Shown: positions 2 through 12,672, counted from the first letter of the stretch. The stretch is 52,969 bases of DNA from Candidatus Omnitrophota bacterium (GCA_026387235.1 JAPLMD010000044.1:1-52969), one strand, 5' to 3'. Notes: a model not told the origin generated them from the sequence alone. A program made the numbers and translations.

Positions 2-3000
2 ATCACAGCTCTGTCTGAAAATAGCGGCATAAGCTACGAACTGCTTAATAAACTCATGGAAAAACGCAAAATCAGATGTCTGAGGTTTAATATACCTGGA
101 TTTACAAAGGAATCTATCTTGATATCCGAAAAGGATATCAAGAATTTACAGGAAAGAGAAATGTCCAAGCTTAATGAGTTTCGCAAGAGGTATCTGCCGA
201 GCGAAAAACAGGCTGTGAGAAGCGCAGATGATATACAGAGACTTAAGGACACATATGGCGTTGATGCTGTTAGAAAAAAGCTTGGAATTGATTATTTTTC
301 CTTTAGGAGGATGGTTATAGAGAGGCGTATAAGATGCAGGACATTTGAGATACCAGGCATTGCGCAGGCTTTTACATTAATACGCGAAGAAGATATGGAT
401 TTCAGTAAGCTGTATAAAAGAGAACTGGCCAGCCTTAATAAGTTTTGTAAAGAGCATCTGCCAAGCGAGTCACAGCCAGTGGCAGACCTTAAGGATATAA
501 GGCTGCTTATACAAAAGTATGGCTCTAATGCAACGTGTAAAAAACTTGGCATTACGTCCAGGGCTACATTGAGAAAATTTCTGATAAGAAAAAATATTTA
601 TTATAAAGTATTTCGCATAAAGAATTTGATTGACGAATTTATACTGATTTCAGAAGCTGATCTTAATGGCGTTATGCAGAAATCTGAATCAGATAGAGCT
701 TTGAAACAACAGCAAGCAAGTGAAAGGTTAAAATCAATTCGCGCATTTTTAACATCCTTGGATATTCGCACAGATATAAATGGTATTGAGAATAGATTGA
801 ATAAACTGCTGGGGAAAAGGAGTGAATATCATTTGCGCAGGCTTGAACGGGTATGGAAGCCATACTCTAAGATGGGGCTCAGGTTAGGTTCCGCAAGCTT
901 TATAGGAATTCTGGAAAAATCAAGAGGGCCCAATGACTTTATAATTCGATTTGATAAAAGATTACAAATAATGCATCCTGGAGTCAGAGAGCTTGGCATG
1001 GTAGTGGATTGGGGCATTGCGCAGGTACCTGAAACAAGACGCGAGGTATTTAAAAATAAGGTTATACCTGCAATGATTGCTGTATCTGGAGAGCAGCGAA
1101 GAGTATCAGGCGTTGGTATTCTAGGTTTCTTCCAGATGCTTGTAGAAGCAAGTGGAGTAATTGGCACCAAGGAGAATCCTTTGCCGCCTGGTTCTCTTGT
1201 TGTGCATGAAGAGTTTGGGCCAGGCATAATAGAAGAACCGGCACATGATAGTCAAAAGCCAGGCAATAATGGACATATCTGCGTTCGTTTTATTAATAGG
1301 TCAGTAACTTTTGTCCCGAATAGTGTTTTATCACCTTTTTCCAACCAGAGCAATTCAGGCACTCATCTCGGGACCAAACATACATATGATCCAGACTTCA
1401 GGCCTTTCGCTGCCTATGATACTAAAACCGGCGCAGCGCAGCATATGAATTTTGATGAAGCACATCAAGACCTGGTAAGGACGCTTATTAATATGCCTGG
1501 GACAGCTATATTCAAGGCTGAGACTAATGACATACTAACACAGATTAATCCAAATGCCCCGCCAGAAACTGTACAAGTTATAGAAACCAAGTTGAGGAAT
1601 ATTTTACCTCGAATTATTCCTGTAATAGAGAAACCTGTCTACTTTTACTTCTTTAAAGGCGCAGAAAAACCCGCATATCTTGGCAATAATCCTTATACCC
1701 TTCTTGATGCAAAAGGAGAAGATAATAAAAGAGGCATTGTTTATCTTGAGGCTGGTTCAGGCGGCATTGATCCTGAAACTGGTGAATGGCGTAATAATCC
1801 TTCTGTATATCTGACACAAGAACTTTTTACAAAACTCTCATCTGAAATCCTTATAGGTGTTCTTCCTGAAGAGCTGGAGCACGCAGCAGTTAAGACAAGC
1901 GGGGATCATGCTGCGGAAAAATGGGAAGCCCAGTCTGATCGCTTAGACAAACTGATTAGCTTGCGCATAGGGCTCCTTAATCATGATATTCAGGAAAATG
2001 ACATTTGGAGGTCTGTAGAACGAGCCAGTGTGCTTATTGATGTTGAAGAGTATGATGCTGCAGAAAGAATATTATACGGACTCCTAGACACAAATCGTGT
2101 GAAATTACCAGGGCAGCTATTAAGCATTACAAATGTCCTGGATAGACTGTTAAAAGAACAAGGGCGGCATGAAGACCGCATTAGGGCAGCTGACAAAGCA
2201 ATTGCAATTGCTGGCAATGTCTTTAAGCCAGGCAGCACTCGGTACAGAAATCCCAGCAATTTAGCGATAGCAGTATCTAATGCTATTTATTATAAAGCCA
2301 GGGCTTTGGAGGCCTTAGGCGAGCATGATAAGGCAGTGAAAATTGCTATTAGCGCTTTGGAAGATTTGAAACAAAAGAATCATCTTGTAGAGTTAGCTAG
2401 TGTTGAATTCAAAAATATTTGGTTTGAATTATCAGCTTCACTCAGCGGGTTTATTGGAGATAAACTGTCACAATCATGGGAAAAGGATTTGAAAAAAGAT
2501 GCCTTGTATCAGGCAGAAGACTATTTAGCTGCAGCGATAGATAATTTTGCGAGATGTACTGATACTAATATCCAGTCTGTATCTGTTTATCAGGCAAGAT
2601 TGGCCTGGACCTGCTTCTATAAAAGCAGGTATGAGGCGTTAAATCCAGCAGGGAAAGAGAAGGCAAGTATGTTTCTGGCCAGGGCCAGGTCAGCTGCCAC
2701 AGAGGCCCTAAAAGCCTATCGCACTCCTGAAGCCTTGACTATTAATGGTGTGCTTACAGAAGCAGAAGGGGCGCCGGAAGGCAGGGGGCAGGCAATTAAA
2801 TATTTGGAGGAATCGTATAAACTGAGCCAGGTGCCGCGCACTGCTATAATGCGCGCGAAGGTGGCGTTACGCGCTCATGATATAGAAGGCGCTGAATACT
2901 GGCTAAATGAATTAGAGAAGGACACTATGTCGCAGACTTATATAAAAGGCGCATGGTTATGCCAGAAGGCCGCAGCATTATGGGGTAATGAGTCACAGCG

Positions 3001-6000
3001 AGATCTCGCATGTCAGTTATATACAGAAGGCCTGGATATGTTAGATAAAGTTTCTAGCGCGCAAAACAAATTATGGTTCGGTATTTTAGGTGAACTTGAT
3101 TCATATTATCAATATAGATTTACAGCTTATGTACGGCTTGGACAGCTCAACGAAGCAATGATAGAATTACCAGCACTATTAAATACCTGCCAAAATATTG
3201 ATGATTTAGCCAAATTTTTAACAGGCACACTGGTTTCTTGGGCTGAATACGAGGCTCTGGTTAAAGCGCTAACTGGAATAAAGAATGGGCGCGGCGTAGA
3301 AGAACTTGTAAGCGCATTGGAGAAAAAATTACAGAGCCAGCCTGATAATCCGGCTGCAGTTACAGGATTGTCTACATTATCTGCGTTTGGCCAGGCAAAG
3401 AAATCACATGTGTTTGAAACAAAGAGAAAAGAATGGCAGACAATATTTGGCCCAGGGTCGCTTAAGGCCCAAAATAGGACACCTGTTACTGTAGATACTA
3501 TGCGTCAGTTTCTTAATGCGTTGCGTGCTACATTGACTATTCAGGAACAAGCAGAGTTTTTAGCTGAATGTGTGTCTCCTAAGGAGTTATTAGATAAAAC
3601 TGCTATAACTTCGCGTCAGGGCTCGATAGTCAAGGTAGTTATGGAAGAAATCCAGAGAATAGTAAGTCCGGAACTGTCTGAAAAAGTAATCGAGGATTTG
3701 TATAAGAAAATTGATGACCTGGAAAAAGACCACCGAAAACAGCTCGACCCATTGCTTAAAACAAAAGGCCTTATTGATACTATTTTTGAAGTTCGTAGTA
3801 AATTGAAAAAGGCTTTAGGGTTGCTTCTGGAAAAGCAAAAACAGACACTAGCTGCGCATGAAGAAGAGGTAGAGCCTGTTGTTGAAGTTGTAGAAGCTGA
3901 GCCTGCGCCAGCAGAGGTAGCGAGAGAAGCTGAACCTATAGCAGAAGAAGCACAAGTGCCAATAGTAGAGGACGCAGTACAAACTATATCTACCAGTCGC
4001 TCAGGAGCATTGGACCAGCAGTTGACAGCTGAAGAATTAAGAACACGTAGAGATCAATTAGAAACAGATTTTCTTGGAGCTCTTGATCAGGTCAGCAGAT
4101 TGCGATTGCCTGAAAGCAATCGCGCATTAAAAGATTTAAGAAGGACAGCGCATAAATTACGTAAGAGAGCAGAAAGGTTTAATACAGAGTTGCTTCCAGA
4201 AGTAGAAAAATTAGAAACAAGCATTAGGCAGCTTGAAATGCAGCTTGCTCAAATAGAATCAGATGTTCATGTACAGGCATTGGATCAGCCAGCAATTGAT
4301 GCTATTCGTCAGTTAGGAACAGTAAGAGAATTAGGACAACATCTTTTCGATATGTATGGCATCAGAGGTGTAGCTAAAGCAACATTAGCCAATGCCTGCA
4401 TAAAAGGCGGAGTAGATCCAGTAATTATCTGGCGCATAGCTATTAGCGAAGGATGTAAAACACAAAATGATACTGCGCAGTATAATCAGGTACTTGCTCA
4501 GTTGCAAGAAAATAGAGGATTGCCAGGCAATAGAAAGGCCGGCAATTTACTTCAGGGCTTGACAGTTCCGGTTGTATTGCTAGGCCGCGCATTGCATCTT
4601 CCAGACAGGATAACAGCAGGTTTGGGTGGAATGGAAGAAATATTCTTCAGCTGGTTTTTCTGCACTGTGCTGCCAAATATATTGCATCATTGGGGCATGC
4701 CTCCAGGATTTGGTTTGGCAATAGGCGTTACCTTAAGTATGTTCTTCTGGTCAGCAATGCATTGGAAAACTGCATATAAGTTGGTTCACTATGATTTTTC
4801 TGAAAAAGACAGAGTTCGTTATGGTGTTTTGAAAGAAAAAATACCTACGCCTCTTAGCCGCATGTTACTTTTTGGCATAGGGGCTGGTTTAAGAATAGTT
4901 TATATTTTAGCTCAGATCGTAGCGCCTTGGTTAGCTTTACCCTTAGTTATGGCGCTTCATAGCTATTACAATGTTAAATTTGCCTTTGATAGAGGCCTGC
5001 CGCAGGCAATAGCAAATTATATAAAGATAGGCCGTGGTATTTTAACGCTGTTTGTTATAGCAATGGTTAATGGTGCGGTTGGCCAGGCTGCGACAACGGT
5101 AAGAGAGCGAACTGAGTCAGCACTCAAAACACCGCAGACTAACATTACACTAGTTGCTCAGAATAAAGAAACAATAGAAGTGAAGAAATGGGTGAAGAAG
5201 TTTGGCAAAGAAATAAAAAGAATTTTTATTGAAGCAGGAGATAAGGATGAACAGGCAATTGTTTTCGAGATGAAAAAAGGCAAAGGAGATGGGTATAGGC
5301 TATCAATATCAAGCAGGGATTCTAAATTAGAAATTAGCGATGCCGCAGGCCGCAATAAAAAGGCATTGGCTCCTGAAGAAAAGCTTGGACTATTAGGCGT
5401 GTTGAAAGAAATGAAACAGGGCATGGAAGCATATGGTGAAAAAATGCAGCCTATGAACAAGCTCTTAAATAGGATTATTGAGTTGTTTGAAGAGCATACC
5501 GAAACTACTCCATTAAAGCAGGGGCCATCCGTAATTCCAGAAGCAGGTTATAGAGATCATATGCCAATTCTTGGGAAAGCAATATTATTGATGCTTGGAA
5601 TACCTGCGCTTGCTTCTGCAGGCCAGGATATTGCTCAGGTTATTAACTTGTTGCCTTTATCTTCACTACTTATAACAGTTAGTCTTGCATACTTGGTTTA
5701 TCGTTATTTAATCAAAACAGGTTATGCCAATAGAATATTATCTTTGTTACACGATCGGTCAACGCAGATACTGGCAGTGTCACTGACAGGGGCAGCTCTG
5801 GCCACAGCTGCAGGTTTTTGGTTTGGATTATGGACGTGGCAATTAGGGGCTGCTGTTACTATTGGTTTTGCAGCACGTTATATCGGACTACAAACTTCTA
5901 AGGCAGAGTATTCTGCTTCTGGTTATATAATGCTGGCTATGCTTAGCACCTCGCTGACGTTTACAGCCTTTTTTGGATTATGGAACGATTCGCTTTATCA

Positions 6001-6634
6001 TTGGATCCATGCCTATCCGCCTCTTATTAAAAGCTCGATTGCTTTTATAAGCGGGGTAGGCTTCAGCGCAATATATGATGGTATAGAGAGGTTATTATTT
6101 GGGTCTATTGTTCGTTCAGCGCAAATTACGCCTCAAGATGCATTCAAACGAAGCGGCATACTTGTTATGGCCAGGCTTGGAGTAGCATGGGCGCTGCATG
6201 TATTGGTTCAGGCTATACCTAGAGAGTATTTATCATATAAAATATTAGCTGGTTCCATTGGAGGATTTGCCCTTAACTGGTTTAGAAGCAGCGGCATGAA
6301 TAGGGAAAAAGAAGGGGTATCTTTTCTGTGGATGATAGGGAGTGGTTTATTAGGCACAGCAGCGTGTTTCGTATTTGTAAATTGGTCTACGGGCTTGGCA
6401 GGATTATTTCTTACCGCAGCCTCATTGCTATATTTTAGACGGGGACATATTTCAAATTGGTTTAAGAAACTCGAGTTAACTAAGGCGCGCTATTATAAAT
6501 GGAAGGAATATTACCGAGGTATAAAATATCTTATGTTTACTATACTGAGTACGCATAAATCAGTTGAGTTGAAAAAGACTTATATTAAGCCATCTCTGCA
6601 GAAGCCAACAAAGGCAGCGGTAACGAGCATTTGA
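2..6634 (+). CDS. giant multidomain membrane protein, 5'-partial (>=2210 aa): tandem excisionase/MerR-like HTH repeats, Tudor-like beta domain, TPR-like helical region, coiled coil plus acidic linker, two polytopic membrane blocks
   Basis: The frame is open from nt 2, with no stop before the ATG at 56. Residues upstream of that ATG (..NSGISYELLNKL) continue the ~95-aa repeat seen again at KKLGIDYFSFRRMV and KKLGITSRATLRKF, so the start lies outside the window. GSLVVHEEFGPGIIEE...ICVRF..RSVTF resembles the UvrD/PcrA C-terminal Tudor-like fold. There is a long helical/TPR-like stretch, an EP/EA-rich acidic linker (nt ~3860-3990) and many hydrophobic helices after nt ~4600. Confidence 0.8.
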   Translation: MTALSENSGISYELLNKLMEKRKIRCLRFNIPGFTKESILISEKDIKNLQEREMSKLNEFRKRYLPSEKQAVRSADDIQRLKDTYGVDAVRKKLGIDYFSFRRMVIERRIRCRTFEIPGIAQAFTLIREEDMDFSKLYKRELASLNKFCKEHLPSESQPVADLKDIRLLIQKYGSNATCKKLGITSRATLRKFLIRKNIYYKVFRIKNLIDEFILISEADLNGVMQKSESDRALKQQQASERLKSIRAFLTSLDIRTDINGIENRLNKLLGKRSEYHLRRLERVWKPYSKMGLRLGSASFIGILEKSRGPNDFIIRFDKRLQIMHPGVRELGMVVDWGIAQVPETRREVFKNKVIPAMIAVSGEQRRVSGVGILGFFQMLVEASGVIGTKENPLPPGSLVVHEEFGPGIIEEPAHDSQKPGNNGHICVRFINRSVTFVPNSVLSPFSNQSNSGTHLGTKHTYDPDFRPFAAYDTKTGAAQHMNFDEAHQDLVRTLINMPGTAIFKAETNDILTQINPNAPPETVQVIETKLRNILPRIIPVIEKPVYFYFFKGAEKPAYLGNNPYTLLDAKGEDNKRGIVYLEAGSGGIDPETGEWRNNPSVYLTQELFTKLSSEILIGVLPEELEHAAVKTSGDHAAEKWEAQSDRLDKLISLRIGLLNHDIQENDIWRSVERASVLIDVEEYDAAERILYGLLDTNRVKLPGQLLSITNVLDRLLKEQGRHEDRIRAADKAIAIAGNVFKPGSTRYRNPSNLAIAVSNAIYYKARALEALGEHDKAVKIAISALEDLKQKNHLVELASVEFKNIWFELSASLSGFIGDKLSQSWEKDLKKDALYQAEDYLAAAIDNFARCTDTNIQSVSVYQARLAWTCFYKSRYEALNPAGKEKASMFLARARSAATEALKAYRTPEALTINGVLTEAEGAPEGRGQAIKYLEESYKLSQVPRTAIMRAKVALRAHDIEGAEYWLNELEKDTMSQTYIKGAWLCQKAAALWGNESQRDLACQLYTEGLDMLDKVSSAQNKLWFGILGELDSYYQYRFTAYVRLGQLNEAMIELPALLNTCQNIDDLAKFLTGTLVSWAEYEALVKALTGIKNGRGVEELVSALEKKLQSQPDNPAAVTGLSTLSAFGQAKKSHVFETKRKEWQTIFGPGSLKAQNRTPVTVDTMRQFLNALRATLTIQEQAEFLAECVSPKELLDKTAITSRQGSIVKVVMEEIQRIVSPELSEKVIEDLYKKIDDLEKDHRKQLDPLLKTKGLIDTIFEVRSKLKKALGLLLEKQKQTLAAHEEEVEPVVEVVEAEPAPAEVAREAEPIAEEAQVPIVEDAVQTISTSRSGALDQQLTAEELRTRRDQLETDFLGALDQVSRLRLPESNRALKDLRRTAHKLRKRAERFNTELLPEVEKLETSIRQLEMQLAQIESDVHVQALDQPAIDAIRQLGTVRELGQHLFDMYGIRGVAKATLANACIKGGVDPVIIWRIAISEGCKTQNDTAQYNQVLAQLQENRGLPGNRKAGNLLQGLTVPVVLLGRALHLPDRITAGLGGMEEIFFSWFFCTVLPNILHHWGMPPGFGLAIGVTLSMFFWSAMHWKTAYKLVHYDFSEKDRVRYGVLKEKIPTPLSRMLLFGIGAGLRIVYILAQIVAPWLALPLVMALHSYYNVKFAFDRGLPQAIANYIKIGRGILTLFVIAMVNGAVGQAATTVRERTESALKTPQTNITLVAQNKETIEVKKWVKKFGKEIKRIFIEAGDKDEQAIVFEMKKGKGDGYRLSISSRDSKLEISDAAGRNKKALAPEEKLGLLGVLKEMKQGMEAYGEKMQPMNKLLNRIIELFEEHTETTPLKQGPSVIPEAGYRDHMPILGKAILLMLGIPALASAGQDIAQVINLLPLSSLLITVSLAYLVYRYLIKTGYANRILSLLHDRSTQILAVSLTGAALATAAGFWFGLWTWQLGAAVTIGFAARYIGLQTSKAEYSASGYIMLAMLSTSLTFTAFFGLWNDSLYHWIHAYPPLIKSSIAFISGVGFSAIYDGIERLLFGSIVRSAQITPQDAFKRSGILVMARLGVAWALHVLVQAIPREYLSYKILAGSIGGFALNWFRSSGMNREKEGVSFLWMIGSGLLGTAACFVFVNWSTGLAGLFLTAASLLYFRRGHISNWFKKLELTKARYYKWKEYYRGIKYLMFTILSTHKSVELKKTYIKPSLQKPTKAAVTSI

Positions 6635-6670
6635 GTTTTTTGAAAAAAGTTTAAAAAAAGCTTTTATAAA

Positions 6671-6699
6671 TTGACAAGTTATGGTATAATCTGTGTAAT
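6671..6699 (+). promoter_or_regulatory. sigma70-like promoter upstream of the PilZ gene
   Basis: TTGACA (6671-6676), 17-nt spacer, TGTAAT (6694-6699). An overlapping alternative is an extended -10, TGGTATAAT (6682-6690). It lies in the 154-nt gap after the giant ORF and about 15 nt upstream of leader element copy 1. Confidence 0.55.
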
Positions 6700-6713
6700 A
6701 TATTTCGGATAAA

Positions 6714-6783
6714 GGTCCCTCGCGACTAGAAGCAAAAATAAGGGTCGCTCGGGATCAAATTTTGCTGCGCAAAATTTGGGAGG
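6714..6783 (+). promoter_or_regulatory. two-hairpin SD-proximal leader element, copy 1
   Basis: GGTCCC-TCG-CGAC...GTCG-CTC-GGGATC, then CAAATTTTG-ctgcg-CAAAATTTG, followed directly by GGGAGG and the ATG at 6789. Confidence 0.7.
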
Positions 6784-6788
6784 TATAA

Positions 6789-7124
6789 ATGAGAGGAAGT
6801 GATTTTGTAGAGAAGAGAAGAACCAAAAGATTGGCGATGTCTCTTCCTATGAAGCTCAGGCGGGTTACCGGCGAAGGTAAATGGGAAGCCGTAGAAGCAG
6901 TTACTTCTAATGTAAGTTATAATGGGGCATATGTAACAGATATAGATTTAAAAAATATAAAGCCCAACGATAACTTACACATAACCTTTTCAGTGCCGCG
7001 GGATGAGGCAAGGGATTTTCCGTTTTCCCGCATTATCGGCAAGGCAAGGGTTGTGAGAGCGGAGGATGAAACTTGCGCGCTTGAATTCAACGAGGATATA
7101 TCCCGGCTTTTTGTTGCTAATTAA
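6789..7124 (+). CDS. PilZ domain protein (putative c-di-GMP receptor)
   Basis: 111-aa ORF with a GGGAGG SD 5 nt upstream of the ATG. It carries the PilZ signature pair: RRTKR (RxxxR) at the N terminus and NVSYNG ((D/N)xSxxG) about 30 residues later. Confidence 0.75.
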   Translation: MRGSDFVEKRRTKRLAMSLPMKLRRVTGEGKWEAVEAVTSNVSYNGAYVTDIDLKNIKPNDNLHITFSVPRDEARDFPFSRIIGKARVVRAEDETCALEFNEDISRLFVAN

Positions 7125-7129
7125 AAAAT

Positions 7130-7198
7130 GTCCCTCGCCGCATATATGCAGGTACTATGGCGGCTCGGGATCAAATTTTGTTTCACAAAATTTGGAGG
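7130..7198 (+). promoter_or_regulatory. two-hairpin SD-proximal leader element, copy 2
   Basis: It starts 6 nt after the PilZ stop. Sequence: GTCCC-TCG-CCGC...GCGG-CTC-GGGATC, then CAAATTTTG-tttca-CAAAATTTG-GAGG, then the ATG at 7203. Confidence 0.7.
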
Positions 7199-7202
7199 AA
7201 GG

Positions 7203-8528
7203 ATGAAAGGTCTGTATAAGAAGTTTTGTCTTTTTTTTATGCTTTCTTTGTTCACCGTTTTTTTAAGTGTTTTTTTAGTGAGCTGCGGGCCGAATGCGCA
7301 AAATAAAAAGCAGGTTAAATCAATAAAAGTATGGCACTGGATGAGCGACAGGGAAAATGCGTTCCTAGAGCTCGCCAAAAGATATGAAATCGAAACAGGC
7401 GTAAGGGTTAATTTCGAGCTTTACGCTCCTTCAGACGCATATACCCAGAAAGTACGAGCAGCTGCCCAGACAAACACCCTTCCTGATATATTCGGAATCC
7501 TGGGAGAAAAAAGAGATTTTGCCAGTTTTGTGAAGTCTGACTATGTATACGACTTGACAGAAGACATGGATGGAGAGAATGGCGCCTGGAAGAATAAGTT
7601 ATTTGCCAAAGCGCTTGCCGTAAATGAATTTGAACAGGCAAACAGCTTCGGAGTCAAACCCGGCATATATGGCGTGCCCATAGATGTTACTAATATCCAG
7701 ATGCTTTACAATAAAGATTTATTGCAGGCAGTAGGATCTGATTCGTCAAATCCGCCAAAGACGTGGAAAGATTTAATAGAGATAAACAGAAAACTCAAGG
7801 CAAAAGGCGTTCAGGGATTGGTGAGCGGATGGGGAGAGATCTGGATGATAGACTGCTTCGCTTCCAATTATGCCTTTAATATCATGGGCAAGGACAAGGT
7901 CCTGGATACTATACGCGGCGAAGTTTCTTATAATGATCCTGACTGGATAAAGGTTTTTGACCTGTTCCGCGAGATGAGGGATGAAGGACTTCTTGCCTCC
8001 GGTATAGTGACAATGGTCAATAAAACAGCGGAGCAGCTTTTCGCGAATAATAGGGCAGCTTTCGCGTTCAATGGTTCGTGGTGCGTGAATGTTTATAAAG
8101 GCATGAACCCTGATTTAAATTACGGGGTAATGCTTCCCCCTCAGGCTTCAGATAGATATCCTATGACAATATGGGGAGGCGCGGGTTCCAGTTTCATGGT
8201 AAATAAACAGTCCAAGAATATCCAGGAAGCCGTTAAATTTTTGAAATGGATCACTGAAACCGATCAGCAGGTTTATCTTTCAAAAGAGACGCAGGATTTA
8301 CCTTCTAATAAATACAGTTTAAAGGATATACCCATGGTGCTTTCCCAGTTTGCGAGCGCCATGGATAACACCACTCATCCGAACGTTTGGGGAGCTTCAG
8401 AGTTTCCTACGGTAATAGAGACGTTCGATAAAGGCATACAGTCCATAATTATAGGCGAGAAAACCCCGGAGCAACTTGCAAGAGAAGTGCAGCAGGTTAA
8501 AGAACGCGAAATGGCTAAGAAGCAATGA
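7203..8528 (+). CDS. ABC transporter extracellular sugar-binding lipoprotein (CUT1 / family 1 solute-binding protein)
   Basis: I chose the in-frame ATG at 7203 (GGAGG SD 5 nt upstream) over the track start at 7128, which lies inside the leader element. It has a signal peptide with lipobox LVSC. Its length and sequence style (WHWMSD..., NGSWC...) are typical of sugar binding proteins, and two permease genes follow. Confidence 0.85.
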   Translation: MKGLYKKFCLFFMLSLFTVFLSVFLVSCGPNAQNKKQVKSIKVWHWMSDRENAFLELAKRYEIETGVRVNFELYAPSDAYTQKVRAAAQTNTLPDIFGILGEKRDFASFVKSDYVYDLTEDMDGENGAWKNKLFAKALAVNEFEQANSFGVKPGIYGVPIDVTNIQMLYNKDLLQAVGSDSSNPPKTWKDLIEINRKLKAKGVQGLVSGWGEIWMIDCFASNYAFNIMGKDKVLDTIRGEVSYNDPDWIKVFDLFREMRDEGLLASGIVTMVNKTAEQLFANNRAAFAFNGSWCVNVYKGMNPDLNYGVMLPPQASDRYPMTIWGGAGSSFMVNKQSKNIQEAVKFLKWITETDQQVYLSKETQDLPSNKYSLKDIPMVLSQFASAMDNTTHPNVWGASEFPTVIETFDKGIQSIIIGEKTPEQLAREVQQVKEREMAKKQ

Positions 8529-9418
8529 ATAATATGCGCACCAAGGCAGTTCTTCAAAATTATCTATTTGTATTACCCGCGGTTCTGATATTTTCAATAT
8601 TCTACATCTATCCCTTCTACAAAGTGTTTACCCTGTCTTTATGCCAGTGGGACGGGATTGCCCGGTTTGATTTCGCTAAAAATTTTATAGGTTTAAGGAA
8701 TTTCATAGAATTATTCCAGGATAAAATCTGGTGGGGCGCGATGCTTCAGGCAGGCTACATAACCCTGATGGCTCTCACGTTCCAGAATGTGCTGGCATTG
8801 ATGCTGGCTCTCGCGTGCGACAGGGATATAAAAGGAGGCAATATATACAGAGTGATATTTTACCTGCCGCTTGTTCTTTCAGAGGTGGTGGTGGGGCTTG
8901 TGTGGAAATGGATATATGACGGCAATTACGGACTTTTGAATTACTGGCTCCAGAATGTAGGCTTATCAAACCTGGTCACAGACTGGCTTTCAAACCCGAA
9001 GACCGCGCTTACATGCGTGGCAGTGATTCATTGTTGGAAAGGCTTTGGGTGGGGATTCATAATGCTTTTAGCAGGACTGCAGACCATACCGAGGCAGTTA
9101 TACGAAGCAGCGAAAGTGGACGGGGCATCCAGCTGGCAGATGTTTAAGAGTGTCACGTTGCCACTCATGGTGCCTGTTTTTATACTAGTTTCCATACTTA
9201 CAGTGCTTGGCACAATGCAGGTATTTGTCCTGATACTTTCAATGACAAACGGCGGGCCTGGATATCACACAGAGGTGCCTGTCACAAGGATCCTTGCGTC
9301 AATGGTGGATTCTTCAAGATTCGGGTACGCGTGCAGTCAGGGCGTGATGTTCGGCGCGGTTCTTCTGGCTGTTTCGTTTGTGCAGATTAAATTGTCGAAA
9401 TACATGAAACAGGCATGA
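8525..9418 (+). CDS. ABC sugar transporter permease (MalF/UgpA-like)
   Basis: ATGA overlap with the binding-protein gene. Six hydrophobic segments and an EAA-type loop (YEAAKVDGASSWQMFKSVTLPL). Confidence 0.9.
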   Translation: MNNMRTKAVLQNYLFVLPAVLIFSIFYIYPFYKVFTLSLCQWDGIARFDFAKNFIGLRNFIELFQDKIWWGAMLQAGYITLMALTFQNVLALMLALACDRDIKGGNIYRVIFYLPLVLSEVVVGLVWKWIYDGNYGLLNYWLQNVGLSNLVTDWLSNPKTALTCVAVIHCWKGFGWGFIMLLAGLQTIPRQLYEAAKVDGASSWQMFKSVTLPLMVPVFILVSILTVLGTMQVFVLILSMTNGGPGYHTEVPVTRILASMVDSSRFGYACSQGVMFGAVLLAVSFVQIKLSKYMKQA

Positions 9419-9420
9419 AA

Positions 9421-9472
9421 CCTGGTCCACCTGCCAGGTGAGCCAATTGGCTCACCTGGCAGGTGGACCAGG
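9421..9472. repeat. 52-nt perfect GC-rich palindrome between the two permease genes
   Basis: cctggtccacctgccaggtgagccaa|ttggctcacctggcaggtggaccagg. The two 26-nt halves are exact reverse complements, and no T-tract follows. Confidence 0.9.
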
Positions 9473-9490
9473 TAGGGATAGGGGTAGAAT

Positions 9491-10339
9491 ATGAAAGAAG
9501 GAACAAAGTATAAAATTGAAAGATTTTTTAAGGATTTTATGATACATATTTTCCTTATTATTATATCCATTACATGCCTATTTCCTCTTCTCTGGATGGC
9601 AGGATCCAGCTTGAAAACTCAGAAGACCATATTTTCAGATATGAGTATTTTCCCAAAGAATCCGATGTGGGGAAATTTTTATCTTGCCTGGACCAAGGGC
9701 GGATTCGGGATGTATTTTTTGAACAGCTTATTTTATACTGTTACGGTTGTGTCCGGGATAGTGATTATTTCGTCCCTGGCAGCCTTTGCGTTTTCCAGAC
9801 TGAAATTTCCCGGCAAGAACGTGATTTTTTATATGTTTCTCGGGGCTATGATGATACCTCTTCCGGGAAGCTTCGTGCCCCTTTATGTCCTGATGACAAG
9901 GCTTCACATGATAAATACGAGGATAGGCTATATACTCTGCATGATAAATGTAGGGCTTTCTTTCAGCATATATTTATTGAAGACATTTTTTGACAAGATG
10001 CCTGTGGAACTGGAGGATGCGGCCCGCATAGACGGATGCTCGAGATTAGGGATATGGTGGAACATGGCTCTTCCGCTTGCAAGACCTGCAATAGCTGTTA
10101 TAGTGATATTTAATTCCCTTAACGTATGGAACGAGTATATACTCGCTACGCTGATATTTTCAAGTAAAAATCTAATGCCTTTACAAAGAGGCCTTATGAT
10201 ATTCCAGGGGATCCACATTACCGAGTACTCGCTTTTAATGGCAGGCATGACAATTACCACTTTGCCGATAATCTTAGTGTACCTGATAATGCAGAGGCAT
10301 ATCATTAAAGGGATAACAGCGGGAGTGATAGTAGGATGA
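9491..10339 (+). CDS. ABC sugar transporter permease (MalG/UgpE-like)
   Basis: Six hydrophobic segments and an EAA loop (LEDAARIDGCSRLGIWWNMALPLARPA). Confidence 0.9.
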   Translation: MKEGTKYKIERFFKDFMIHIFLIIISITCLFPLLWMAGSSLKTQKTIFSDMSIFPKNPMWGNFYLAWTKGGFGMYFLNSLFYTVTVVSGIVIISSLAAFAFSRLKFPGKNVIFYMFLGAMMIPLPGSFVPLYVLMTRLHMINTRIGYILCMINVGLSFSIYLLKTFFDKMPVELEDAARIDGCSRLGIWWNMALPLARPAIAVIVIFNSLNVWNEYILATLIFSSKNLMPLQRGLMIFQGIHITEYSLLMAGMTITTLPIILVYLIMQRHIIKGITAGVIVG

Positions 10340-12672
10340 TGCTAAATAAAGGTTGCAAGAGGTTGCTAGGGGCGGCGTTAATTGCACTATTTGTGCTATA
10401 CCCTGGCCGTCATGCTCAATCCGAAGAGATGGGCGATGCAAACTTGTCTCCCAAGGACATGATTGTCCGCGCGTGGGAGGCGTGGGGCGCAAAGAATTAC
10501 GAGAAGACTTTTTACTGGACTGATAAGTGCATAGGCGAATATAGCGAGGAGGCGAAAAAAGAGCAGGCGTCTTTAAGCGATTTTCCCCCAACAGATATCA
10601 TAGACCAGTACGAGGCCTTGAACGCAGTAGGCACGAGTTTTTTTATTCAGGGCGAGGCGTATCTTTCCCAGGGAAAGATAGAAGAGGCAAAGAAGGCCTT
10701 TGGCATAGCTATAAAGGATTATAGTTTTGCCCAGAACTGGGATCCGAGAGGCTGGTACTGGAGCGTAAAGGAAAAAAGCCAGGCTAGCATAGAAAAATCA
10801 GAGAAAAAGCCTGACGTGGCTGAGGAAAAATCTCCAAAGCCCACACCTGGTTTTAAGAAAAGGCCCAGCACCACTATCACGCTTTACGATCCAGGCAAAG
10901 AGGCAATTGTAGATTATAAAAGATACGGATATTTTAAAAATGTCGGCACTGATAAATACGCCTATATCATAAAGGACCAGGAAGGACTTTCGCAGGCAGT
11001 GGGGGAGGCTATACATCCAAACACATCGAGCGTAAACTGGGATCCGCGCTATAAAAAGGCCAAGGACGAAGGCAGGCTGGAAGGAAACCACTGGGATTTT
11101 GTGAATACGGACGACCTGGAGGCAAATTTTTATAAATGGTCCAGCGCGCCTGAGCCGCCTGGCTTGCGTTTATTTTACATCGGCTTAAACCTTGAGAAAT
11201 CCGGGCTTTTAACGCAGGCCATAAAGGCGTACTACGCTATAGTGGTGAATTTTCCTAAATCAGTGGGCTGGACTTATTTTCGTACGCCATGGTACATAGC
11301 CCAGGTTGCCTGCGACAGGATAGATTTTTTATTAAGGCATCATCCGGAGCTTGAAATGGAAATGATAGGCGCCAAAGTGAAGATTGAAAACGGGTTTGAC
11401 AATGATATAGCGAATGACAGGTTTATAGTAACTCCGGGCGAAATCAAAAAGCTGAATTTTTTTGATAAGATAAAAAAGACTTTATTTAATGTAAAAAGAG
11501 TAAAAACAGGAAAGGTTATAAAGCAGATAGGCGATGGCAAAGTGGATTTTGTAAAATATGAAAACGGACAGTGGCAGTTAAGAGTAGAAGGCAGGCCTTA
11601 TATCATAAAAGGCGTTGCGTATTCCCCGGGTAAAACAGGCCAAAGCCCTGACGAAGGCACTATGGAAGACTGGATGCAGGCGGACTACAATAAAAACGGA
11701 AAGATAGACGGGCCTTATGACGCGTGGATGGATAAGAATTTAAATAACACGCAGGATCCGGATGAAAAGGCAGTGGGCGATTTTCAATTATTAAAGGAAA
11801 TGGGATGCAATACAATCAGGCTCTATCATCACGCCTCAAACAAGGAGCTTTTAAAGGAACTGTATCAGCGTTACGGCATCATGGTGATAATGGGGGATCT
11901 TCTGGGAGCGTATACAGTGGGTTCAGGCGCAGGCTGGTATGAAGGAACGGATTATGCAAATCCTGAGCACAAGAAGAATATGCTGGAGAGCGTCAAAAAG
12001 ATGGTGGAGGAGTTTAAAGACGAGCCGTATGTGCTTTTCTGGATGCTCGGAAATGAAAATAATTATGGCGTAGCTAATAATGCAAAAAGAAATCCCAGAG
12101 TTTATTATGAATTCGTAAACGAAGCGGCTAGTATGATAAAGTCTATGGACAGGGACCATCCAGTGGGAATCTGCAATGGAGACCTTACGTTTCTGGATAT
12201 ATGCTCCAGCTTGGTGCCTAGCGTGGACATATACGGTTCAAACACATACAGAGGCAAATACGGGTTCGGCGCGAGCTTCTGGGAGAATGTGAAAGATACA
12301 TGGGGTAAACCTGTTATGATAACGGAATACGGTTGCCCTGCATACATGGAAGGAAAATCCGGAAAGGTCGCTCAAGAGGCTCAGGCAGAATACCTTAAAA
12401 ATGCGTGGCAGGATATTGCGTATAATTCGGCTGGTAGTCCTGGCGCAGGAAACTCTATAGGTGGGATGCTTTTTGAATGGGTTGACGAATGGTGGAAGGC
12501 GTATGAGCCTTCAGTGCATGACACGAAACGAAACTGGTCAGGCCCTTTTCCTGACGGATGGAATTACGAGGAGTGGCTTGGCGTATGCAGCCAGGGTGAC
12601 GGGAAATCCAGCCCATTTTTAAGACAACTCAGAAAAGCTTATTTTACTTATAAGGAAATGTGGAATAAGTAG
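10336..12672 (+). CDS. secreted TPR-like N-domain fused to a clan GH-A-like TIM-barrel glycoside hydrolase
   Basis: ATGA overlap with the permease gene and an N-terminal signal-like segment. Motifs: NTIRLYHH, FWMLGNENNY (acid/base-type NE), ITEYGCPAY (nucleophile-type E) and FEWVDEWWK. A paralog is at 13542..14765. Confidence 0.65.
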   Translation: MMLNKGCKRLLGAALIALFVLYPGRHAQSEEMGDANLSPKDMIVRAWEAWGAKNYEKTFYWTDKCIGEYSEEAKKEQASLSDFPPTDIIDQYEALNAVGTSFFIQGEAYLSQGKIEEAKKAFGIAIKDYSFAQNWDPRGWYWSVKEKSQASIEKSEKKPDVAEEKSPKPTPGFKKRPSTTITLYDPGKEAIVDYKRYGYFKNVGTDKYAYIIKDQEGLSQAVGEAIHPNTSSVNWDPRYKKAKDEGRLEGNHWDFVNTDDLEANFYKWSSAPEPPGLRLFYIGLNLEKSGLLTQAIKAYYAIVVNFPKSVGWTYFRTPWYIAQVACDRIDFLLRHHPELEMEMIGAKVKIENGFDNDIANDRFIVTPGEIKKLNFFDKIKKTLFNVKRVKTGKVIKQIGDGKVDFVKYENGQWQLRVEGRPYIIKGVAYSPGKTGQSPDEGTMEDWMQADYNKNGKIDGPYDAWMDKNLNNTQDPDEKAVGDFQLLKEMGCNTIRLYHHASNKELLKELYQRYGIMVIMGDLLGAYTVGSGAGWYEGTDYANPEHKKNMLESVKKMVEEFKDEPYVLFWMLGNENNYGVANNAKRNPRVYYEFVNEAASMIKSMDRDHPVGICNGDLTFLDICSSLVPSVDIYGSNTYRGKYGFGASFWENVKDTWGKPVMITEYGCPAYMEGKSGKVAQEAQAEYLKNAWQDIAYNSAGSPGAGNSIGGMLFEWVDEWWKAYEPSVHDTKRNWSGPFPDGWNYEEWLGVCSQGDGKSSPFLRQLRKAYFTYKEMWNK

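What the first reader, a model, noticed from the sequence alone, without database searches (positions are those of the whole stretch)
2..6634. Giant (>2200 aa) protein combines tandem DNA-binding-type HTH repeats with a polytopic membrane C terminus
The ORF runs off the 5' edge of the window. It contains, in order:
- At least three ~95-aa repeats of an excisionase/MerR-like HTH module (LGIxxxxLxxxxxxxxIxxxxFxIPG....LIxExD, then ...LN.F.K..LPSE.Q.V....DI..L...YG).
- A UvrD/PcrA-C-terminal-like Tudor segment (nt ~1188-1330).
- Several hundred residues of TPR-like helices.
- A coiled coil and an acidic E/P/A/V linker.
- Two blocks of many transmembrane helices separated by a soluble insert (nt ~5100-5560).

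Cytoplasmic nucleic-acid-binding repeats fused to a large integral-membrane machine is not an architecture I can assign to a known family. The gene is followed by a PilZ gene.
Basis: partly seen in the sequence, partly recalled or inferred. Interest (0 to 1): 0.6.

Follow-up and report, generated by a model that had tools for sequence, protein, structure and literature searches.

The report
Tail of an Omnitrophota giant gene
The 2,210-codon open frame is real, but it is only the last part of one of the very long "giant genes" already described in Omnitrophota bacteria; the proposed DNA-binding repeats are not supported, and part of its membrane end resembles an intramembrane protease.

Summary
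The ORF at window 2-6634 is real and coding. Independent metagenome contigs bridge the suspected misjoin near nt 4500, and their differences sit mostly at third codon positions.

It is not a stand-alone ~2,200-aa protein. The window starts at base 1 of its contig. A congeneric genome that lacks the gene shows that this contig and contig C55 flank one slot. C55 carries a C39-peptidase ORF that runs off its 3' end. The assembled gene is therefore at least 5,300 aa.

The layout (giant gene, pilZ, sugar-binding protein, permeases, glycoside hydrolases) is the published Omnitrophota arrangement (West-Roberts 2023). I found it in 38 of 48 species. This scan has reported such tails before on other DNA.

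The tail sequence is species-specific. Heads are 48-57% identical within the genus, while tails are unrelated.

- **HTH reading:** no better than background.
- **Tudor-like barrel (res 393-440):** moderately supported.
- **First membrane block (EE / H / HxxxN):** resembles CPBP intramembrane proteases and recurs in six other giants.
- **TPR:** unsupported.

Verdict: a new member of a known kind, of modest interest.

The parts
2..6634 (+). 3'-terminal 2,210 codons plus stop of a giant gene. The 5' end is cut by the contig start.
   Evidence: link to contig C55 by synteny
2..544 (+). Two full ~90-aa tandem repeat units (nt 2-280 and 281-544). The fold is unknown.
   Evidence: 41% identity, E 1.6e-17. 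Not found in 400 other Omnitrophota genomes.
545..691 (+). Third repeat copy, first half only.
   Evidence: An HMM of copies 1 and 2 hits residues 188-227, 12.3 bits, E 7.7e-6.
1178..1321 (+). Tudor-like / CarD-TRCF-RID-like small barrel, residues 393-440.
   Evidence: Pfam sub-threshold. hhalign score 26.3, P 1e-4; 0 of 100 shuffles reach it; other windows reach at most 16.2.
1322..1966 (+). ~210-aa module of unknown function (residues 441-655), shared with other Omnitrophota giants.
   Evidence: 46% identity, E 6e-39, to a 59,091-aa frame; 39% identity to an 81,822-aa frame. No Pfam or PDB match.
3860..3982 (+). Acidic E/P/A/V linker, residues 1287-1327.
   Evidence: composition
4559..5101 (+). 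Membrane block 1: a CPBP-like core. Motifs are EE (nt 4634-4639), H1587 (nt 4760-4762) and H1653xxxN1657 (nt 4958-4972).
   Evidence: hhalign score 27.2, P 5.9e-4, against CPBP proteins of relatives. Shuffles reach at most 21.1 and 30 natural TM windows at most 17.7. The motifs are conserved in homologous modules of other giants.
5102..5551 (+). K/E-rich soluble insert between the two membrane blocks.
   Evidence: strands and helices in a low-confidence model
5567..6436 (+). Membrane block 2, about 9-10 helices.
   Evidence: Hydropathy. 26-28% identity to frames of 8,820 and 2,570 aa in two other genomes.
6437..6631 (+). Basic C-terminal tail (23% K+R, no D).
6789..7124 (+). Small PilZ (c-di-GMP receptor) gene.
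   Evidence: Pfam PF07238, E 1.9e-6. Its position matches the literature.
7128..12672 (+). Sugar-binding protein, two ABC permeases and a GH2-like hydrolase: the conserved downstream context.

Best explanation
Window 2-6634 is the last ~2,210 codons of this Omnitrophota species' giant gene.

**Locus layout.** The gene sits in a conserved slot. Upstream lies a divergent FIST / histidine-kinase / response-regulator-GGDEF operon. Downstream lie pilZ, a sugar ABC transporter and glycoside hydrolases. The head of the gene lies on contig C55. It holds about 3,100 aa with two Peptidase_C39 matches and runs off that contig. The middle is unassembled.

**The tail is a mosaic, in this order:**
1. At least 2.5 copies of a species-specific 90-aa repeat.
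2. A Tudor-like barrel.
3. A 210-aa module shared with 59-82-kaa giants.
4. A long, probably helical stretch that has no family match.
5. An acidic linker.
6. A five-helix CPBP-like membrane core.
7. A soluble insert.
8. A second block of 9-10 membrane helices.
9. A basic tail.

**Inferred, not shown.**
- The tail anchors the giant polypeptide in the inner membrane.
- The EE / H / HxxxN residues lie on one membrane face. They either cut the polypeptide (as the head's C39 domains may also do) or act as a non-catalytic scaffold.
- The soluble modules are protein-binding pieces on the cytoplasmic side.
- The flanking GGDEF and PilZ genes place the locus under c-di-GMP control.

The overall role proposed in the literature is attachment to, and degradation of, the cell wall of prey or host.
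For: **Linking C55 and C52 into one slot**
- The frame is open to the contig's first base.
- Congeneric genome G004 aligns to C55:3503-9915. About 100 bp later it aligns to window 6785-8610. C55 and C52 therefore flank one slot, which is empty in G004.
- C55 carries a 2,029-aa ORF with Peptidase_C39 and an overlapping 1,103-aa ORF that is open at its 3' end.
- G007, G008 and G009 have one continuous ORF there. It is 48-57% identical over the first 800 aa.

**Positional equivalents in other genomes**
- G009 carries a frame of at least 5,997 aa and G032 one of at least 9,872 aa.
- 38 of 48 Omnitrophota loci carry a same-strand ORF of at least 1,500 aa upstream of the SBP gene. Velamenicoccus archaeovorus is among them.

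**Literature**
[quoted passage not shown] C39 domains sit near the N-terminus and there are many TM regions.

**Shared modules and coding signal**
- Modules of the tail recur inside frames of 7,327 to 81,822 aa.
- 10 of 13 listed differences in nt 4558-4738 fall at codon position 3, and there is an in-frame +GCT insertion.
- Flanking signalling genes: GGDEF and PilZ.
Against: - The C55-C52 join is inferred from synteny. No read or contig crosses it, and nothing covers window nt 1-244.
- A separate gene starting just upstream of the window is not excluded. The V. archaeovorus group has an extra ~825-aa ORF between the giant gene and the SBP gene.
- No SecA_DEAD-like domain lies in the assembled parts.
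- No T2SS/T4P genes lie in the 10 kb upstream on C55.
- Only 3 of 39 tails end in a membrane block, so this end is atypical.
- The CPBP link rests on hhalign (probability 29-42%) and on motifs. Pfam PF02517 and a local HMM do not detect it.
- Both structure models were unusable, with pLDDT 38.5 and 42.8.
- All functional statements are inference.
Confidence: 0.85

Rival explanations
1. Stand-alone large protein. On this view a separate gene of roughly 2,300-3,000 aa starts just upstream of the contig edge. It would be a neighbour of the giant gene rather than part of it.
For: - Some lineages have a separate ~825-aa ORF between the giant gene and the SBP gene.
- C55's two ORFs show that reading-frame breaks occur in this locus.
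- No sequence bridges the gap.
Against: - The frame is open at the contig edge, inside a repeat unit.
- The first ATG (nt 56) would cut repeat 1.
- C55 ends in an open frame of the same orientation in the same slot.
- In most species the long ORF runs right up to pilZ.
Confidence: 0.12
2. The repeats are winged-helix DNA-binding modules of the excisionase/MerR type. On this view the tail tethers nucleic acid, or a regulator, to the membrane.
For: - The sequence pattern resembles HTH_17, and hhalign aligns it in register (score 17, P 0.0076).
- The low-confidence model has two short helices, then a non-helical stretch where a wing would be.
- A Tudor-like RNAP-interaction-type barrel follows.
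Against: - Scores of 17.7-20.2 occur in 6 of 41 unrelated windows of the same protein.
- Single repeats score 9-13.
- Pfam, PHROGs and PDB sequence searches find no HTH.
- The six-frame PF12728 search of this genome finds five other loci but not this one.
Confidence: 0.2
3. Assembly chimera: a soluble protein joined wrongly to a membrane protein near nt 4500.
For: The AT skew changes sign at about 4500, as expected where hydrophobic codons begin.
Against: - Contigs from other studies span 4209-5368, 4431-5023 and 4122-4434.
- GC content is even across the ORF.
Confidence: 0.02

Closest known systems
Omnitrophota giant genes ('Archaeovorin'-type; West-Roberts et al. 2023, bioRxiv 10.1101/2023.11.21.568195; Nielsen & Lui 2026, bioRxiv 10.64898/2026.06.07.730766)
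   Same: - Phylum.
- Downstream pilZ, SBP, permeases and GH2-like hydrolases.
- C39 peptidase near the head.
- Many membrane helices.
- Fast-diverging modular sequence.
- Modules shared with 59-82-kaa frames.
   Different: - Only about 5,300 aa are assembled. The published class was defined above 30,000 aa.
- No SecA-like domain, glycosyltransferase or methyltransferase was seen in the assembled parts.
- No secretion or pilus locus lies directly upstream.
- The tail ends in a polytopic membrane block, which 36 of 39 tails do not.
CPBP / Rce1-like (Abi) intramembrane proteases, Pfam PF02517
   Same: - Three motifs in the right order, each at the right end of its helix and all on one membrane face: EE, then xxxH, then HxxxN.
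- hhalign score 27-30, above all controls.
   Different: - The motif-1 Arg is Ser (EEIFFS), and this holds in the related giant modules too.
- There is a 32-aa basic loop inserted after motif 2.
- Not detected by the Pfam model.
- Embedded in a giant protein rather than in a ~250-350-aa protein.
CarD_TRCF_RID / UvrD-PcrA C-terminal Tudor-like barrels
   Same: A G..VVH..FG.G core followed by short strands. The profile match covers 48 columns.
   Different: - 13.7 bits against a Pfam cut-off of 23.
- No helicase or CarD context.
- The binding partner is unknown.
Earlier reports of this scan on other Omnitrophota genomes (e1-882158, e1-855252)
   Same: A contig-cut tail of a giant gene upstream of pilZ and sugar-uptake genes, built from modules with no known family.
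   Different: Different sequences and modules. None of the 80 related loci matches this tail.

Membership tests
Omnitrophota giant-gene locus | Genome belongs to Omnitrophota. | tested here: met
   The best relatives of the neighbouring SBP are titled Candidatus Omnitrophota, including V. archaeovorus LiM.
Omnitrophota giant-gene locus | Immediately followed by small pilZ gene(s), then SBP, permeases and glycoside hydrolases. | tested here: met
   literature wording
Omnitrophota giant-gene locus | C39 peptidase domain near the N-terminus. | tested here: met
   The only PF03412 matches in the genome are on C55, in the ORF at the head of the slot. The link to the window rests on synteny.
Omnitrophota giant-gene locus | Numerous transmembrane regions. 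| tested here: met
   About 15 helices in the tail.
Omnitrophota giant-gene locus | Length above 30,000 aa (the published working threshold). | tested here: inconclusive
   At least 5,300 aa are assembled, and the middle is missing from the 69-contig genome.
Omnitrophota giant-gene locus | Divergent SecA_DEAD domain inside the gene. | tested here: inconclusive
   Only the ordinary SecA on C4 was found. The unassembled middle cannot be judged.
Omnitrophota giant-gene locus | Preceded by a T2SS/T4P-like locus. | tested here: not met
   The 10 kb upstream on C55 holds FeoAB, CstA and a FIST-HK-GGDEF operon. T2SSF genes lie elsewhere, including window 31.5-32.5 kb.
CPBP / Rce1-like (PF02517) | Match to the family model above its cut-off. 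| tested here: not met
   No hit at E<=10 on residues 1500-1700. The six-frame search finds only C18 in this genome.
CPBP / Rce1-like (PF02517) | Motif 1 EExxxR, motif 2 FxxxH, motif 3 HxxxN/D, in order on successive helices. | tested here: inconclusive
   EE, H and HxxxN are present and conserved in related giant modules. The Arg is replaced by Ser. hhalign P 2.6e-4 to 5.9e-4, above 150 shuffles and 30 natural TM windows.
HTH_17 / excisionase-MerR HTH (PF12728) | Match to the family model, or profile similarity above background. | tested here: not met
   No Pfam hit. The hhalign score of 17 lies inside the range of unrelated windows.
CarD_TRCF_RID / Tudor-like barrel (PF02559) | Match to the family model above its cut-off. 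| tested here: inconclusive
   Pfam gives 13.7 bits against a cut-off of 23. hhalign against Mfd RID domains of relatives gives score 26.3, P 1e-4, probability 58%, well above controls.
TPR repeats | Any TPR-clan model match. | tested here: not met
   None at E<=1 in the whole protein.

The most novel reading that the evidence does not exclude
The giant-gene slot may behave like a polymorphic cassette.
- **Conserved head, variable tail.** A C39-bearing head, conserved within the genus, is joined to species-specific, unrelated tails. The whole gene is absent in one congener.
- **This tail's end.** It ends in a previously unnoticed family of CPBP-like intramembrane modules (EEIFFS / H / HxxYN), found so far only inside Omnitrophota giants.
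- **Possible role.** Together with the C39 domains, these modules may cut the polyprotein or protect the producer. This would echo the pairing of a C39 leader peptidase with an Abi immunity protein in bacteriocin loci.
Probability: 0.12. Interest if true: 0.6.

Novelty: new member of a known kind. Interest (0 to 1): 0.3.

Why it matters
**Annotation.** An apparent orphan architecture is really a fragment of a known kind of gene, and the two contigs that belong together can now be named.

**Biology of Omnitrophota giants.** Three modest leads come out of this work:
- Within one genus the head of the gene is conserved, the tails are unrelated, and the slot can be empty.
- The slot is bracketed by a GGDEF two-component operon and a PilZ gene.
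- A CPBP-like membrane module and a 210-aa soluble module recur in giants of 7,000-82,000 aa, and neither of the two preprints read mentions them.

These are defined pieces that could be expressed and tested, which is hard to do with a whole giant protein.

Tried and rejected
**Family and structure searches with no significant result**
- Pfam and NCBIfam on the whole protein: no significant family.
- PHROGs on segments: nothing.
- PDB sequence search with the repeat profile, the Tudor segment and the 210-aa module: nothing significant.

**Homologue searches**
- Word-based search of 5.8 billion proteins, run on the whole protein, on the first 480 aa, and on residues 1-1500 against longer proteins: only the protein itself.
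- Full HMMER over 1.84 billion representatives with residues 1500-2210: only itself.
- Whole protein against 40 relatives: one weak linker match only.
- Metagenome-contig scan with the first 700 aa: none.
- Repeat profile in 400 Omnitrophota genomes: none.
- tblastn against 80 SBP-linked loci: none.
- tblastn of the repeats against the genome's own contigs, to find the missing 5' end: none.
- No contig of the genome is open at both ends.

**Structure prediction**
- AlphaFold2 without an alignment gave pLDDT 38.5 for residues 1-470 and 42.8 for residues 1500-2210. I ran no fold search on such models.
- The ESM Atlas was unavailable.

**Other**
- Plain hmmsearch with my small CPBP, RID and HTH alignments: not significant on this protein.
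- Sequencing runs: no RNA holder was listed, and no contig covers nt 1-244 or extends 5' of the window.

Full report
**1. The observation**

Window nt 2-6634 is one open frame of 2,210 codons with no stop before the window edge. The window is bases 1-52969 of contig C52 in a 1.5-Mb, 69-contig genome, so the frame is cut by the contig end itself. Base composition is even along it.

*Repeats.* Residues 9-93 and 95-181 are 41% identical, E 1.6e-17. A third copy follows in tandem but keeps only its first half. An HMM built from copies 1 and 2 matches residues 188-227 at 12.3 bits, E 7.7e-6 for that one target.

*Membrane part.* Hydropathy shows two membrane blocks, at about residues 1516-1700 and 1856-2145. 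They flank a K/E-rich insert at residues 1701-1850. An acidic E/P/A/V linker lies at residues 1287-1327, and the last 65 residues are strongly basic.

*Downstream genes.* A PilZ gene follows at 6789-7124 (Pfam E 1.9e-6). After it come a sugar-binding protein, two ABC permeases and GH2-like hydrolases.

**2. Not a chimera, and it is coding**

Short contigs from four public metagenome runs were laid on the stretch. The runs come from groundwater (2024), freshwater sediment (2022) and sediment (2019). Several contigs are identical to the window and others are about 90% alike.

- One 1,164-nt contig spans 4209-5368.
- Others span 4431-5023 and 4122-4434, so the suspected join near nt 4500 is bridged independently.
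- Of the 13 differences listed between 4558 and 4738, 10 fall on third codon positions.
- The one indel there is an in-frame +GCT.
- Nothing covers nt 1-244 or reaches beyond the 5' edge.

**3. What it is**

*Synteny.* The neighbouring sugar-binding protein is 80-87% identical in congeneric genomes. Positional equivalents of the ORF, directly upstream of pilZ and the SBP gene, are:

| Genome | Relation | What lies upstream of pilZ-SBP |
|---|---|---|
| G009 | same genus | frame of at least 5,997 aa |
| G015 | same family | frame of at least 2,604 aa |
| G032 | same class | frame of at least 9,872 aa |
| G004 | same genus | no such gene |

G004's DNA aligns to G000 contig C55:3503-9915. About 100 bp later it aligns to window 6785-8610. 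C55 and C52 are therefore the two flanks of one slot.

*The head on C55.* Directly after the shared flank, C55 carries a 2,029-aa ORF holding the genome's only Peptidase_C39 matches. A 1,103-aa ORF overlaps its end and runs off the contig. In G007, G008 and G009 the same flank is followed by one continuous ORF of at least 2,277 to 3,055 aa. That ORF is colinear with both C55 ORFs and 48-57% identical over the first 800 aa. The gene therefore has at least 5,300 assembled codons and an unassembled middle.

*Literature.* This is the arrangement West-Roberts et al. (2023) describe for Omnitrophota giant genes. They report C39 domains near the N-terminus and many membrane helices. [quoted passage not shown] Nielsen & Lui (2026) confirm the flanks.

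*Phylum and survey.* Record titles of the SBP's relatives name Candidatus Omnitrophota, including Velamenicoccus archaeovorus LiM. Of 48 such loci with at least 6 kb upstream, 38 have a same-strand ORF of at least 1,500 aa, nearly all running off the fetched stretch.

*One mismatch.* The 10 kb upstream on C55 holds FeoAB, CstA and a divergent FIST / GAF-histidine-kinase / response-regulator-GGDEF operon, not a secretion or pilus locus.

**4. How unusual the tail is**

No homologue of the whole tail exists in any collection searched. That is normal for this class.

- In an all-against-all comparison of 39 tails, 11 have no partner. Most of the others share only patches of 100-700 aa.
- Within the genus, the tails of G000, G008 and G009 are unrelated, although the heads are conserved.
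- What is unusual here is the ending. Only 3 of 39 tails have two or more strong membrane helices in their last 800 aa, while this one has eight.

A search of 400 genomes across the phylum did find pieces of the tail:

| Tail residues | Match | Frame holding the match |
|---|---|---|
| 441-655 | 46% identity, E 6e-39 | 59,091 aa |
| 441-655 | 39% identity | 81,822 aa |
| 1524-1673 | 37% identity | 7,327 aa |
| 1948-2148 | 26-28% identity | 8,820 and 2,570 aa |

The tail is thus a mosaic of modules that circulate among giant genes. The 210-aa module at 441-655 has no Pfam or PDB match.

**5.

I built small family alignments from relatives' genomes and compared profiles with hhalign, always with controls.

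| Label tested | Observed | Controls | Verdict |
|---|---|---|---|
| HTH_17, 30 sequences | repeat profile aligns in register; score 17, P 0.0076; single repeats 9-13 | 6 of 41 other windows of the same protein score 17.7-20.2 | not supported |
| CarD_TRCF_RID (Tudor-like), 29 Mfd sequences | residues 393-440: score 26.3, P 1e-4, probability 58% | 0 of 100 shuffles reach it (max 17.8); other windows at most 16.2 | moderately supported |
| TPR | no Pfam hit | none run | not supported |

For the Tudor-like piece, Pfam's own models give E 0.067 (CarD_TRCF_RID) and E 0.011 (PWWP) on the same piece.

**6. A CPBP-like membrane core**

- Residues 1520-1700 were compared with 30 CPBP proteins of relatives. 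They score 27.2, P 5.9e-4. EEIFF aligns with EEiFFRG, and FWSAMH aligns with FS.LH.
- None of 150 shuffles exceeds 21.1. Thirty natural membrane windows from giants reach at most 17.7.
- A relaxed alignment puts HSYYN on the family's H..HN.
- The start of the motif-1 helix, the end of the motif-2 helix and the end of the motif-3 helix all fall on the same membrane face. This follows from the helix order.
- A profile search found the module in six other genomes. Five of those matches were aligned, in frames of 1,726 to 8,370 aa; the sixth, a partial match, was not. Motif 3 (H...N/D) is kept in all six aligned sequences, the motif-2 His in five, and EE in four. The usual Arg is not present in any of them (Ser in four of the six).
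- Against: Pfam PF02517 and a local HMM miss it. hhalign probability is only 29-42%. No usable structure model was obtained.

I rate a true CPBP fold at a little over one in two. Neither preprint mentions CPBP or CAAX domains.

**7. Mechanism**

Shown:
- The position of the gene, its fragmentation, the mosaic make-up and the coding signal.

Inferred:
- The tail is the inner-membrane anchor of the giant polypeptide.
- The CPBP-like core either cleaves the polypeptide (as the head's C39 domains may) or serves as an inactive scaffold.
- The repeats and the Tudor-like barrel bind partners on the cytoplasmic side. The 32-aa loop after motif 2 has eight K/R, which by the positive-inside rule puts the long soluble part in the cytoplasm.
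- The GGDEF operon and PilZ put the locus under c-di-GMP control.

**8. Verdict**

This is a new member of a known kind. The scan has already reported giant-gene tails in this arrangement in other Omnitrophota genomes. Interest is modest. The useful extras are the C55-C52 link, the conserved-head / unrelated-tail pattern with an empty slot in one congener, and two recurrent modules that had not been noticed.

Noticed in passing
G000 contig C55:16324-16367 (locus L032 8325-8371): The 2,029-aa C39 ORF and the following 1,103-aa ORF overlap by 44 nt in different frames. G007, G008 and G009 have one continuous ORF there. This may be a frameshift, real or an assembly error, at the end of the second C39 match.
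   Followed up: partly
G004:C8 (locus L018 13683-13781) versus C55:9915 and window 6785: One congeneric species has no giant gene in the slot. Its GGDEF two-component operon sits about 100 bp from pilZ.
   Followed up: partly
G000 contig C55:5415-9065 (locus L033): A divergent operon (FIST protein, GAF histidine kinase, response-regulator-GGDEF) directly flanks the head of the giant gene. The gene is therefore bracketed by a c-di-GMP maker and a PilZ reader.
   Followed up: partly
G000 contigs C61:1-6705 and C5:2-6331: A second fragmented very large gene. One piece is a 2,235-aa frame open at its 5' end with LVIVD repeats. The other is a 2,110-aa frame open at its 3' end with PKD, He_PIG and CarboxypepD_reg domains.
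   Followed up: no
window 6589-6832 and 7077-7300: Summed contig depth in four metagenomes is 7-110 here, against about 2-5 over the ORF, with many loose ends. This fits the multi-copy two-hairpin repeat reported earlier at 6714-7198.
   Followed up: no
window ~489-606: One groundwater contig matches up to nt 606, inside the third repeat, and then continues with unrelated AT-rich sequence. It may be a branch in the assembly graph from further repeat copies or from a strain variant.
   Followed up: no
G236:C2:193493-194098 and G317:C1:199960-200535 (loci L217, L218): Open frames of 59,091 and 81,822 aa in two Omnitrophota genomes carry the 210-aa module of tail residues 441-655. Its conserved core reads TYDPDFRPF ... 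NAPP ... NPY.LLDA ... AEAGSGG ... EEL.HA.
   Followed up: partly
window 6789-7124: The six-frame PF07238 search of the genome listed 12 PilZ matches but missed this gene, which hmmscan scores at 28.6 bits. That tool's first-look filter can drop weak true matches.
   Followed up: no
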